Positions 588 to 9,074 of a DNA stretch of 9,907 nucleotides are shown here, one piece after another. Source of the stretch: Octopus sinensis (taxonomy: Eukaryota); the NCBI RefSeq assembly GCF_006345805.1, contig NW_021827772.1, positions 1 to 9,907 on the forward strand. The letters are read 5' to 3'. Each line of letters opens with the position of its first letter. The stretch's first letter is position 1. A model generated the notes under the pieces. It was given only the letters and a program-made list of their open reading frames with translations. It had not been told where the DNA came from and ran no database searches. The position numbers were made by a program, and so were the translations under genes.

Positions 588-721
588 ATGATATATATAT
601 ATAGACATACATATACATATATGTATGTATATGTATGTATATATGTATATATGTATATACATACACACATGCATATATACATATATATATACACATATAT
701 ATGTATGTATGTATGCATATA
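588..721. repeat. Compound (TA)n/(CATA)n/(TATG)n microsatellite
   Basis: Directly visible alternating TA/CA/TG runs; explains ORFs 431..718, 468..755 and 625..834. Confidence 0.95.
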
Positions 722-879
722 AATATGCTAGCAAAAACTGTTCGATGAACGGCAACGGGAAACTCAGAGTAACAGGTTTTGTTGAATGTTCTGCTGCTTT
801 AAATAAAGCATATTACTCTACCACTGGTATTTGAGTACTCTTTTTTCCTCCTTGTTTCACATTTATGTGTTTACTCCGG
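722..879 (+). mobile_element. Short microsatellite-flanked element carrying a hammerhead-like motif; candidate Penelope-like terminal-repeat remnant
   Basis: Complex-sequence island between two TA-rich tracts; hammerhead-like motif at 733-780 followed by AATAAA at 802-807 and a T-rich 3' part. Penelope assignment is inferred from architecture only. Confidence 0.5.
733..780 (+). ncRNA. Minimal type I hammerhead ribozyme-like motif (variant core)
   Basis: Stem I CTGT(738-741)/ACAG(772-775), extendable by AAAA/TTTT; core TCGATGA(742-748) versus canonical CUGANGA; stem II (A)CG-GCAA-CG(G) at 749-758 with a GNRA tetraloop; GAAA(759-762); quasi-palindromic stem III ACTC-A-GAGT(762-770); cleavage triplet GTA(769-771). 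All parts are in the correct order and register. Confidence 0.7.
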
Positions 880-1223: not shown

Positions 1224-1571
1224 CCTGTCTGTCTCTATGTATGTATACTTTCTCACTGGTAATTTCTACCCCGTATATAGCACAATTGTAATTCTCTTTA
1301 TCCCAAAGAAATTGAACTCATATAGGATATAATTTAGGTACTCAGCTATGAGTCCCCTGCATCTTATTGCAGGAACAGTTGTAAGCTAATGAAGTTCATA
1401 GCAAAACCATCGTTTTTCCTGTTATATACATAGATATATACGTATGGAAGGTGCGATAAGGATTTTATAGACTCCCGAGAATTTCTGAACACGCAGGCGA
1501 AACTTCAGGGTAGCGGGATCCTGACTTGTCCAAGATAAAAAATAATAACCGCTACTATGGTATTGCGTGCT

Positions 1572-1791
1572 AGCAGAATCGTTAGCACGTCGGGCGAAAT
1601 GCTTAGCGGTATTTCGGCTGCCGTTACGTTGTGAGTTCAAATTCCGCCGAGGTCGACTTTGCCTTTCATCCTTTCGGGGTCGATAAATTAAGTACCAGTT
1701 AAGCACTGGGGTCGATATAATCGACTTAATACCTATATCTGTCCATGTTTGTCTCCTCTATGTTTAGCCCCTTGTGGGTAATAAAGAAATA
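1572..1791 (+). mobile_element. Family A tRNA-derived SINE (tail type C) with 13-bp TSD
   Basis: Head AGCAGAATCGTTAGCACG, B box GAGTTCAAATTCC, body GCCTTTCATCCTTTCGGGGTCGATAAATTAAGTACCAG; near-identical to 3236-3438; flanked by GGTATTGCGTGCT at 1559-1571 and 1792-1804. Confidence 0.92.
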
Positions 1792-3235: not shown

Positions 3236-3604
3236 GCGGTGAGCTGATAGAATCGTTAGCACGCCGGACGAAATGCGTTCTGAGTTCAAATTCCGCCGAG
3301 TTTGACTTTGCCTTTCATCCTTTCGGGGTCGATAAATTAAGTACCAGTTACGCACTGGGGTTGATGTAATCGACTTAATCCGTTTGTCTGTCCTTGTTTG
3401 TCCCCTCTATGTTTAGCCCCTTGTGGGTAGTAAACAATAGGTATTTTGTCTGTCTTTACGTTCTGAGTTCAAATTCCGCCGAGGTCGACTTTTCCTTTCG
3501 GGGTCGATAAACTAAGTACCAGTTACGTACTGGAATCGATCTAATCGACTGGTTCCTTCTCAGATATTTCGGGCCTTGTGCCTAGAGTAGAAAAGCATAA
3601 TAAT
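3236..3604 (+). mobile_element. Dimeric family A SINE (monomer 1 ~3236-3438 tail C; headless monomer 2 ~3439-3595 tail A)
   Basis: Two tandem copies of GTTCTGAGTTCAAATTCCGCCGAG...GGGGTCGATAAA.TAAGTACCAGTTACG.ACTGG; begins GCGGTGAGCTG, ends GCCTTGTGCCTAGAGTAGAAAAG plus (ATA)n. Confidence 0.92.
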
Positions 3605-3616
3605 ACTTTCAAATAA

Positions 3617-3813
3617 GGCGGTGAGATTTCAGAATTAGCAGCATTTCGTCCGTCCTTACGTTCTGAGTTCAAATGTCACTAATGATCACTTTGCCTTTCA
3701 TCCTTTCGAGGTCGATAAAATAAGTCCCAGGCGAGTACTATGGTCAATGGAATTGATTTACCCCAACCCCGTAAATTGCTGACCTTCTGTCAAAATTTGA
3801 AATCAATAATAAT
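3617..3813 (+). mobile_element. Family A SINE, diverged, tail type B
   Basis: GGCGGTGAG head, GTTCTGAGTTCAAAT B box, CTTTGCCTTTCATCCTTTCGAGGTCGATAAAATAAGT body, tail AAATTGCTGACCTTCTGTCAAAATTTGAAATC plus (AAT)n. Confidence 0.85.
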
Positions 3814-4118: not shown

Positions 4119-4280
4119 CCTTTCTACTCTTGACATAAAGCCTGAAATTCGGAGGAGTGAGTAGTCGACTACATCGACTCCAGTGCGTAACTGGTACAAA
4201 TTTTATCGATTCCGAAAGGATGAAAGACAAAGTCGACCTCGGCGGAATTTGAACTCAGACCGTACTGACGGACGAAATAC
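4119..4280 (-). mobile_element. Headless family A monomer, tail type A
   Basis: rc match to 3439-3595, including AAAGTCGACCTCGGCGGAATTTGAACTCAGA; stops at GAAATAC. Confidence 0.88.
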
Positions 4281-4285
4281 ATTTA

Positions 4286-4501
4286 TTTTCTACTCTAGGC
4301 ACAAGGCCCGAAATTTTGGGAGAGGGGTCAGTCGATTTGATCGACCCCAGTACGCAACTGATATTTAATTAATCGACGCCGAATGGATGAAATGCAAAGT
4401 CGACCTCGGCGGAATTTGAACTCAGAACGTAACGGCAGATGAAATACTGCTAAGGCTAAGTATTTCGTCCGGCGTGCAAACCATTCTACTAGCACGTCGC
4501 C
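4286..4501 (-). mobile_element. Full-length family A SINE, tail type A
   Basis: TTTTCTACTCTAGGCACAAGGCCCGAAAT (rc tail A) through TATTTCGTCCGGCGTGCAAACCATTCT...CGCC (rc head). Confidence 0.9.
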
Positions 4502-6529: not shown

Positions 6530-6920
6530 GATTACCACCACAATGTCACCACCACCCCAACCAACGCGTCACAATCACCACCAATAATATCCTTCTCTAC
6601 TCTAGGCACAAGGCTCGAAATTTTGGGGAGGGGGCCAGTCGATTAAATTGACCCCAGTACGCAACTGGTACTTAATTTATCGACCCCGAAAGGATGAACG
6701 GCAAAGTCGATCACCACCAACAATATCACCATCATCAACACTCCACCACTAACAACAATGTCACGCCACCGTTACCGCCATACACCCCACTGACAACATC
6801 ACACCTTCATTACCACCACTACTGCCGACGTCACCACCACCACCATCACCATCACCACAATATTCCCAACACTGTCACCGTCACGCCATTAACACCACTG
6901 TTAGGTCACCTCCACCGCCA
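6530..6920. repeat. Degenerate (CAC)n/(CAT)n tract interrupted by a SINE
   Basis: Visible CAC-rich triplets; gives poly-His ORF 6694..6954. Confidence 0.85.
6592..6709 (-). mobile_element. 5'-truncated family A SINE (tail A) with 18-bp TSD
   Basis: rc body and tail A; flanked by ATCACCACCAATAATATC(6574-6591) and ATCACCACCAACAATATC(6710-6727), one mismatch. Confidence 0.9.
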
Positions 6921-7569: not shown

Positions 7570-7777
7570 ATTAGTTTCAAATTTTGGCACAAGGCCATCA
7601 ACTTATATGAAGCGGATAAGTCGATTCCATTGACCCCCAGTACTCTACTGGTATTTAGTTTATCGACCCCGAATGGATGAAAGGCAAAGTCAACCTCGAC
7701 GGAATTTGATCTCAGAACGTAAAGACAGACTAAACGCCGCTAAGCATTATGTCCGACATACTAACGATTCTGCCGCC
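7570..7777 (-). mobile_element. Family A SINE, tail type B
   Basis: GTTTCAAATTTTGGCACAAGGCC (rc tail B), TTTATCGACCCCGAATGGATGAAAGGCAAAGTCAACCTCG, CTAACGATTCTGCC (rc head). Confidence 0.88.
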
Positions 7778-7849
7778 ACGCAGAATGAGACATGTATGTG
7801 TGTGGGGGGTGGGGGTGAATAAGTAACGTGAATAGTTACGGCGATGTGC

Positions 7850-8873: not shown

Positions 8874-9067
8874 TATGTGACCTCGTGAGTACCGCTAGCG
8901 ATTTTTTTCTCTCTGTCTTCCCTTCTCGGGATCTTTCCTATGCCTGTGTTTCCGACGAAGAGCTCCGCTCGAAACGTTCTTTCCTGAGCGTCCAATAATA
9001 TTTTATTTGTTCCACGTCCTCGCGTTGCTGTGTTTTTTTCTTTTTGTGTTTTCTTGTTTGGATTAAC
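8872..9067 (+). mobile_element. Short (TA)n-flanked element carrying a hammerhead-like core; candidate Penelope-like terminal-repeat remnant
   Basis: Complex island between (TA)n tracts; hammerhead-like core 8952-8979, AATAAT at 8994-8999, T-rich 3' part; same layout as 722-879. Confidence 0.55.
8952..8979 (+). ncRNA. Minimal hammerhead ribozyme-like core (probably degenerate copy)
   Basis: CCGACGA(8952-8958)-A-stem II GAGC/TCC/GCTC(8960-8970)-GAAAC(8971-8975)-GTTC; palindromic AACGTT as stem III. No clear downstream stem I partner in this copy. Confidence 0.6.
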
Positions 9068-9074
9068 TATATAT

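What the first reader, a model, noticed from the sequence alone, without database searches (positions are those of the whole stretch)
733..780. Complete minimal type I hammerhead-ribozyme fold with a variant core between microsatellites
Seen: stem I CTGT/ACAG (plus AAAA/TTTT), core TCGATGA, very short stem II CG-GCAA-CG with a GNRA loop and an A.G closing pair, GAAA, stem III ACTC-A-GAGT, and a GUA triplet exactly one step before the 3' strand of stem I. Known: minimal type I hammerheads with palindromic stem III occur in Penelope-like element terminal repeats and in retrozymes, and often cleave as dimers. Inference: this is a self-cleaving RNA motif of a non-autonomous retroelement. The 1-nt stem III loop suggests dimeric folding. 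The core differs from CUGANGA at positions 3 and 4, so this copy may be weakened or may represent a family-wide variant.
Basis: partly seen in the sequence, partly recalled or inferred. Interest (0 to 1): 0.8.

Follow-up and report, generated by a model that had tools for sequence, protein, structure and literature searches.

The report
Penelope retroelement hammerhead, altered-core lineage
The motif is a hammerhead-ribozyme sequence in a 150-base leftover end of a Penelope-like jumping gene; this copy is likely dead, but one of its two core changes (U4C) is shared by about 2,600 sister copies and recurs in two other families of this genome, so these elements likely spread with a weakened ribozyme.

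Summary
Observation confirmed letter for letter (a descriptor hits 2 of 1000 shuffles). Window 728-878 is the 5'-truncated end of an autonomous Hydra-clade Penelope-like element (RT plus GIY-YIG, RWK and DKT motifs, (TA)n target), not a dedicated non-autonomous element. Full copies carry the motif in both terminal repeats, 3.3-3.4 kb apart (10 copies). Hammerheads in this clade are already published (PMC8557442, File S2); one coral example has the same stem I, stem III arms and GUA site. The two core changes differ in status: U4C is lineage-wide (2,566 matches against 3,125 canonical), C3U is sporadic (63) and is predicted to misfold this copy. New here: U4C in amplified lineages of three families, likely gained in one and reverted in another; a two-pair GNRA stem II without the usual 10.1-11.1 pair; and, from a second motif at window 8952, a large A6U lineage. 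None of 82 published rows I read has C4. Cleavage is untested, and insertion ends give no sign of it. The scan noted similar Penelope hammerheads in other genomes, not this core.

The parts
591..725 (.). AT-rich microsatellite on the 5' side; insertion target
   Evidence: 591-726, period 4; sister copies also lie in (TA)n
726..727 (+). two bases that do not match the element's upstream sequence and fit the start of an inverted (fold-back) arm, as in many sister insertions; inferred
   Evidence: longer copies have other letters here; inverted-pair copies have these
728..878 (+). 5'-truncated terminal repeat (pLTR) plus tail of a Hydra-clade Penelope-like element, C4/G758 lineage
   Evidence: (96-98% to top copies); 3 differences from the class's column majority in 738-878 (742, 788, 849)
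729..741 (+). stem I, 5' strand (738-741 proximal; 729-736 extension)
742..748 (+). core positions 3-9; 742 = sporadic C3U, 743 = lineage-wide U4C, 746 = N7 (U or C by subfamily)
749..758 (+). stem II: A749.N758 at 10.1/11.1 (N = A, G or U by subfamily, C in a few), two C-G/G-C pairs, GNRA loop 752-755
759..771 (+). G12-A13-A14, palindromic stem III 762-770 with one central base, predicted cut after A771
   Evidence: homoduplex -7.4 kcal/mol
772..784 (+). stem I, 3' strand (772-775; mismatch 776; extension 777-784)
785..808 (+). rest of the repeat; 808 is the 'short' 3' end used by 57 of 101 sampled arms
809..878 (+). 70-nt tail; 'long' 3' end (44 of 101 arms); in tandem copies it runs on into the 5' UTR about 70 nt before the start codon
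879..891 (.). (TA)n on the 3' side
8948..8978 (+). second, unrelated minimal hammerhead motif (core starts 8952, again C4); the 3' strand of stem I is missing in this copy; lies in a repeat of about 8875-9074 ending in (TA)n

Best explanation
Window 728-878 is a 5'-truncated end of a Hydra-clade Penelope-like retroelement inserted in a TA repeat, and 733-780 is the hammerhead motif of its terminal repeat, which in intact elements would likely cut slowly and only as a dimer, while this copy is likely inactive. Shown: full elements read repeat(hammerhead, tail)-5'UTR-ORF(RT, GIY-YIG)-3'UTR-repeat(hammerhead), so one transcript can hold two motifs 3.3-3.4 kb apart. Predicted: the 9-nt palindrome of stem III cannot close on itself and pairs with the second motif, giving two active sites; cutting after N17 would free the element RNA from a longer transcript (model of Cervera and de la Pena; inferred). 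Genomic copies run through the cut site and end 37 or 107 nt beyond it, so the copied template held an uncut or rejoined site (inferred), which is what a slow ribozyme allows. The lineage of this copy amplified with U4C, a change reported as tolerated but slower; the youngest lineage of the same family has canonical U4. After insertion this copy likely gained C3U, which turns the C3-G8 pair into U.G and is predicted to draw the core into a wrong helix.
For: ORFs upstream of the motif in longer copies; RWK, DKT, YRDD, GIY-YIG-type and CxxC/CxH motifs as defined for Hydra. Both repeats carry the motif in 10 full copies, spacing 3,345-3,432. Published Hydra-2_aMil has the same stem I, the same stem III arms, a GNRA loop and GUA; 5 of 26 Hydra rows have these stem III arms. 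A second family in this genome (44% protein identity) has the motif at the same place with identical stem III and a different stem I, 3 of the 4 proximal pairs changed on both sides. Between family-1 subfamilies, 738-878 differs at 6 columns: position 4, N7, the N of GNRA, 11.1, the 1x1 mismatch and one downstream base; none breaks a stem or other core position. Cofolding two canonical natural copies gives the dimeric hammerhead as the minimum-energy structure; the window copy gives a mispaired core. Counts: canonical 3,125, C4 2,566, U3C4 63, of 5,966 with any letters there; controls 0. U4C in a viroid is cited as tolerated (PMC9608096) or as much slower in vitro yet sufficient in vivo (PMC3088659).
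Against: No cleavage, RNA-end or expression data. Insertion 5' ends do not mark the cut: 3 of 101 arms are compatible with a start at +1, none clearly enriched, against 40 of 101 at -50..-31; one search is confounded by TA microhomology. Family 1 lacks a standard 10.1-11.1 pair in most copies; none of 26 published Hydra rows has A opposite a purine there. The cofold of a C4 copy (L063) forms the stem III duplex but not the clean core, and the family-2 cofold uses a shifted register. Conservation of the motif over its flanks is modest: 3 substitutions in 38 columns against 9 in 52 and 3 in 49 just upstream, and 1 in 23 downstream, so the whole terminus is conserved. One published family (Saccoglossus 1) has U3 with G8, so C3U alone need not be fatal. 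Rfam finds nothing.
Confidence: 0.75

Rival explanations
1. The hammerhead-derived fold is kept by these elements as a structural module (RNA dimerisation through the stem III palindrome, or a binding/stop site for the element's RT), and catalysis is largely lost; core changes such as U4C, A6U and the open 10.1-11.1 position are then relaxed selection.
For: Lineages with U4C (three families) and A6U (52 of the first 100 of 32,126 matches) reached thousands of copies; insertions run through the cut site; 5' ends cluster at the base of extended stem I; stem III is identical in two families only 44% alike; metazoan minimal hammerheads cleave poorly in vitro (PMC4209133).
Against: In family 1 no large lineage has A or G at position 4 (212 of 5,966 matches fall outside the three Y classes), and G5, G8, A9, G12-A14, A15.1, U16.1 and H17 stay fixed in all families seen while N7 and N17 vary, the pattern catalysis imposes; the youngest family-1 lineage has canonical U4 (29 of 30). 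Some patterns fixed these letters by design, so part of this is circular.
Confidence: 0.17
2. One reading: an active self-cleaving motif of a non-autonomous (retrozyme-like) element, with the UC core as a functional family variant.
For: Most copies are short and lack an ORF; 63 copies share the UC core; one old pair lies in direct repeat 856 nt apart (L120).
Against: Short copies are nested truncations of an ORF-bearing element with scattered 5' ends; the 63 UC copies are spread over all C4 subfamilies (different N7, loop and 11.1 letters), as expected of independent post-insertion changes; no compensating A8.
Confidence: 0.05
3. Chance resemblance inside an ordinary repeat.
For: No Rfam hit; folding z 0.12.
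Against: 2 of 1000 shuffles; position in both terminal repeats; near-identical architecture in published Hydra-clade rows and in a second family with compensated stems.
Confidence: 0.02

Closest known systems
Hammerheads of Hydra-clade Penelope-like elements (Craig et al. 2021, PMC8557442; passages, File S1 Hydra sheet and File S2 read), notably Hydra-2_aMil, Penelope-3_HM, Hydra-1_Obim
   Same: RT-GIY-YIG element with RWK and DKT motifs, (TA)n target, motif about 100 nt from the 3' end; 4-nt palindromic stem III arms with one central base; Hydra-2_aMil has the same proximal stem I, GNRA loop II and GUA site; a non-standard 10.1-11.1 position is common there (U.U in 14 of 26 rows).
   Different: All 26 rows have U4; here C4 lineages hold 2,566 matches. 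Stem II has only two standard pairs, with A opposite A/G/U/C at 10.1-11.1. Family 1 has CxF instead of CxC in the linker. Tail is 70 nt against 30-40 nt quoted for PLEs. It is not Hydra-1_Obim (its motif and protein differ).
Minimal hammerheads of metazoan PLE terminal repeats (Cervera and de la Pena 2014, PMC4209133; parts 1-2 of 4 of the text and parts 1-2 of 3 of the supplement read)
   Same: Type I topology, in both terminal repeats about 3 kb apart, thousands of solo truncated copies, inverted neighbours, stem III usable only as a dimer.
   Different: Their consensus has a long stem II closed by G10.1-C11.1 and a 1-2 bp stem III; none of 56 rows in Fig. S3 has C4 (cores CUGA or UUGA).
U4C (CCGA) hammerhead variants of viroid-like RNAs (Ambros and Flores 1998, not held; seen only as cited in PMC9608096 and PMC3088659)
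   Same: Same single core change, reported compatible with function.
   Different: There a minority variant of an RNA replicon; here fixed in amplified retroelement lineages in a nuclear genome.
Retrozymes / non-autonomous hammerhead retroelements (search listings only)
   Same: Type I hammerhead, dimer mode, high copy number.
   Different: No dedicated non-coding tandem unit was found; the parent encodes its own RT and endonuclease.

Membership tests
Hammerhead ribozyme, type I | Three-stem junction with open stem I | tested here: met
   stem III only as intermolecular duplex
Hammerhead ribozyme, type I | Core C3 U4 G5 A6 N7 G8 A9 / G12 A13 A14 / A15.1-U16.1 / H17 in the window copy | tested here: not met
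   U3 and C4; the rest present
Hammerhead ribozyme, type I | Same core at family level | tested here: met
   3,125 canonical matches; canonical in the intact-ORF copies; C4 in 2,566
Hammerhead ribozyme, type I | Standard pair (usually G-C) at 10.1-11.1 | tested here: not met
   A749 opposite G (111), A (74), T (33), C (1) of 219 held copies, a sample biased by the searches
Hammerhead ribozyme, type I | Stem covariation among homologues | tested here: met
   family 1 versus family 2 stem I, 3 of 4 pairs changed on both sides; published Hydra rows. Within family 1 the stems do not vary, so no covariation there
Hammerhead ribozyme, type I | Site-specific self-cleavage after N17 | not testable with these tools
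   needs an assay; insertion ends inconclusive
Rfam hammerhead families | Covariance-model score | tested here: not met
   no hammerhead hit at E<=10
Penelope-like element (EN+) | Single ORF with RT and C-terminal GIY-YIG endonuclease | tested here: met
   open frames of 717-728 aa; motifs read; Pfam gave no hit; best homologue carries PF01541
Penelope-like element (EN+) | Partial tandem pLTRs, inverted 5' copy, tail at one end | tested here: met
Hydra clade of PLEs | RWK motif and DKT in place of DKG | tested here: met
   both families; definition
Hydra clade of PLEs | CxCX5C linker; CxxC and CxH near the end | tested here: inconclusive
   family 2 meets all; family 1 has the second Cys replaced, CxxC and CxH present
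Hydra clade of PLEs | (TA)n target | tested here: met
Hydra clade of PLEs | Placement in an RT tree with named PLE clades | not tested
   my tree had only unnamed homologues as outgroups
Retrozyme (non-autonomous) | Non-coding unit repeated head to tail, no ORF in the family | tested here: not met
   family has intact ORFs; short copies are truncations

The most novel reading that the evidence does not exclude
Octopus-type Penelope elements tune their ribozyme down: the U-turn base flips between U and C in amplifying master lineages (gained in family 2, reverted in family 1, both states in family 3) and a further lineage of well over ten thousand copies fixed A6U, while every other catalytic letter is kept. 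Slow or no cutting would then be what retrotransposition needs, because the copied template must keep an intact hammerhead junction; and since two unrelated families share an identical stem III palindrome, their RNAs could pair with and cut each other in trans. This genome would be a natural, copy-number-scored mutational scan of what the PLE hammerhead is for.
Probability: 0.25. Interest if true: 0.65.

Novelty: new variant of a known kind. Interest (0 to 1): 0.38.

Why it matters
The role of hammerheads in endonuclease-bearing Penelope elements is stated to be unclear (PMC8557442). Here natural lineages with canonical, U4C and A6U cores each made thousands of copies and can be roughly ordered in time, which gives a ready panel of natural sequences to test whether cleavage rate matters for amplification. 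It also shows that CUGANGA-only descriptors miss about half of the motifs in these families. The single copy in the window is, by itself, an ordinary decayed fragment.

Tried and rejected
Rfam scans of the window and of 722-880: no hammerhead; the miRNA hits are microsatellite artefacts below gathering scores. Monomer folding is no better than shuffles. Pfam and PDB sequence searches of the ORF gave nothing useful. My first clade guess, Neptune, was dropped after reading the Hydra definition; an early notebook entry still says Neptune-like. Test for insertions starting at the cut site: 5 of 101 arms mapped to -3..+4, of which 2 (L164) are artefacts of the palindrome and 3 are compatible; the genome-wide junction pattern gave 4-5 of about 34 distinct places in the listed first 100 rows directly at the site, confounded by TA microhomology: inconclusive. 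Automatic subfamily clustering failed because alignments ran into inverted arms; replaced by classes on column 758. Protein tree left the base of family 1 unresolved and the DNA tree is midpoint-rooted only, so polarity rests on divergence. Sequencing runs: no RNA holder listed; contigs of four runs from four organism labels show both U4 and C4 in family 1, but the same tool did not list position 4 for family 2 or N7 for family 1, so its variant lists are incomplete; contigs cannot show RNA ends. Literature searches for CCGANGA, CCGA with uridine turn, C3U with G8A, and Penelope-like with CCGA returned nothing; hammerhead with octopus returned no paper on this. Lunse et al. 2017 and Ambros and Flores 1998 are not held, so Lunse's variant set may already include these motifs.

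Full report
Observation. A relaxed type I descriptor finds only this site in the window and a hit in 2 of 1000 dinucleotide shuffles. Stem I extends eight more pairs past a 1x1 mismatch. Rfam has no matching hammerhead model hit and the fold energy is unremarkable.

What it sits in. Window 722-880 matches dispersed copies at 96-98% over about 155 nt (40 of 621 candidates scored), flanked by (TA)n and often preceded by a short inverted arm. Walking upstream reached ORFs with RT and GIY-YIG-type domains. A protein search of the genome listed 61 matches, many with open frames of 717-728 aa. The proteins have RWK, DKT, YRDD/YKDD and terminal CxxC and CxH motifs, the features given for the Hydra clade, which also targets (TA)n (PMC8557442, passages). 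The clade call rests on motifs, not on a tree with named elements. Ten full copies carry the motif in both terminal repeats, 3,345-3,432 nt apart, with the 5' repeat starting anywhere from -44 to -730 relative to the predicted cut. Arms end either at window 808 (57 of 101) or after a 70-nt tail at 878 (44 of 101); in tandem copies the tail leads into the 5' UTR.

The core. Exact patterns over the genome give 5,966 matches with any letters at positions 3-4, 3,125 canonical, 2,566 with C4 and 63 with U3 C4; reversed controls are 0; the spacer allowed was 8-22 and 8-12 in the others, and arms of one inverted insertion count twice. The 63 are spread over all C4 subfamilies, so C3U is recurrent decay. 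The window copy differs from its class's column majority at three places in 738-878, one being C3U. Between subfamily classes only six columns differ: position 4, N7, the N of the GNRA loop, 11.1, the stem I mismatch and one downstream base. The loop variants that recur (GCAA, GGAA, GAAA, GGGA) are all GNRA.

Order in time. Tail substitutions per site from class majority: U4/A758 0.006 (30 copies), C4/G758 0.024 (16), C4/T758 0.032 (14) (pattern-selected sample, and the T class mixes subfamilies). All family-1 loci from the protein search that have a readable motif have U4 (42 of 45 aligned; 3 without a readable motif, one of the 42 also C3U), while the three C4 ORF copies, found earlier by a DNA walk, form one branch about 8% away (six loci of the other family were not aligned). 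So the C4 lineage is older and the active one canonical; reversion is inferred, since the trees do not root it.

A second family. Six loci belong to a family 44% identical in protein. It has a motif at the same place with identical stem III, a different six-pair stem I, a long stem II and a GUU site. The pattern gives 4,122 matches (control 7); of the first 100 listed, 78 have C4, 21 U4 (one of them a family-1 copy) and 1 U3C4 (counted by eye). All six ORF-bearing loci have C4, and C4 copies are more alike (0.073, 24 copies) than U4 copies (0.122, 8). CpG decay could turn C4 into U4 in old copies, but 15 of the 20 U4 rows keep another CpG in stem II (by eye). Here U4C looks recently gained.

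A third group. Window 8952 starts a classical minimal hammerhead, again with C4, whose 3' stem I strand is lost in this copy. Its pattern has 32,126 matches (control 0); of the first 100, 52 have U at position 6, 26 C4, 21 canonical, 1 C6 (by eye). In the U6 lineage N7 takes all four letters and N17 is A or U in the rows seen. In 2 of 30 loci (L264, L286, both U6) a GIY-YIG frame lies upstream on the same strand.

Mechanism. Shown: position, tandem arrangement, palindrome. Predicted: stem III forms a homoduplex of -7.4 kcal/mol, and two canonical copies cofold into the dimeric hammerhead as minimum-energy structure; the window copy instead pairs its U741-C743 with the GAA strand; a C4 copy forms the duplex with a partly mispaired core. 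Inferred from PMC4209133 (parts 1-2 of 4 read): dimers cut slowly and release the element RNA, perhaps for circularisation. Copies read through the cut site, and 5' ends pile up at -50..-31 (40 of 101) rather than at +1 (3 compatible), so DNA gives no sign of cutting; the pile-up may come from fold-back at a short palindrome at 728-731 or from RT stalling at stem I.

Comparison. File S2 of PMC8557442 lists 26 Hydra-clade rows, all with U4; Hydra-2_aMil shares stem I, stem III arms, a GNRA loop and GUA with this motif, and an octopus Hydra element with a hammerhead is already listed. Fig. S3 of PMC4209133 lists 56 rows, none with C4, one with U3 and G8. PMC3088659 (section 8 and passages) states that C3-G8 pair, that two-pair stems II are common and that U4C lowers activity in vitro yet permits viroid infectivity; PMC9608096 (passage) says it did not affect cleavage. 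My searches found no paper with CCGA cores in PLEs, but Lunse et al. 2017 was seen by title only, and figures and unread supplement parts may bear on this.

Verdict. A real member of a described kind; the window copy is a likely dead fragment. The lineage-level core changes are a new variant and make a long-standing question, whether PLE hammerheads must cut, testable with natural sequences. Interest 0.38.

Noticed in passing
window 8875-9074 (motif core at 8952): Second hammerhead-bearing repeat end with C4 core and a deleted stem I strand; group has 32,126 pattern matches, about half of the first 100 with A6U; GIY-YIG frame upstream in L264 and L286.
   Followed up: partly
L194, L195, L197, L201, L202, L210, L212-L241: Second Hydra-type family, 4,122 matches, identical stem III palindrome, C4 in its young intact-ORF lineage.
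   Followed up: partly
family 1, positions -50..-31 from the predicted cut (window 721-740): 5' ends of 40 of 101 arms cluster just upstream of the motif, often as a perfect fold-back into an inverted arm.
   Followed up: partly
L120:1864-3549: Two identical old-subfamily motifs in direct repeat 856 nt apart without an ORF; could be a deleted, non-autonomous unit.
   Followed up: no
L003:1340-1400: A family-1 inverted insertion lies next to a family-2 end across one TA tract.
   Followed up: no
window 1564-1790, 3250-3760, 4145-4455, 6585-6700, 7600-7780: At least eight copies, both strands, of a SINE-like repeat; resemblance to cephalopod tRNA-derived SINEs is recalled, not tested.
   Followed up: no
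L061:5881-6442: A separate GIY-YIG frame of the kind linked to the A6U motif lies beside a family-1 element.
   Followed up: no
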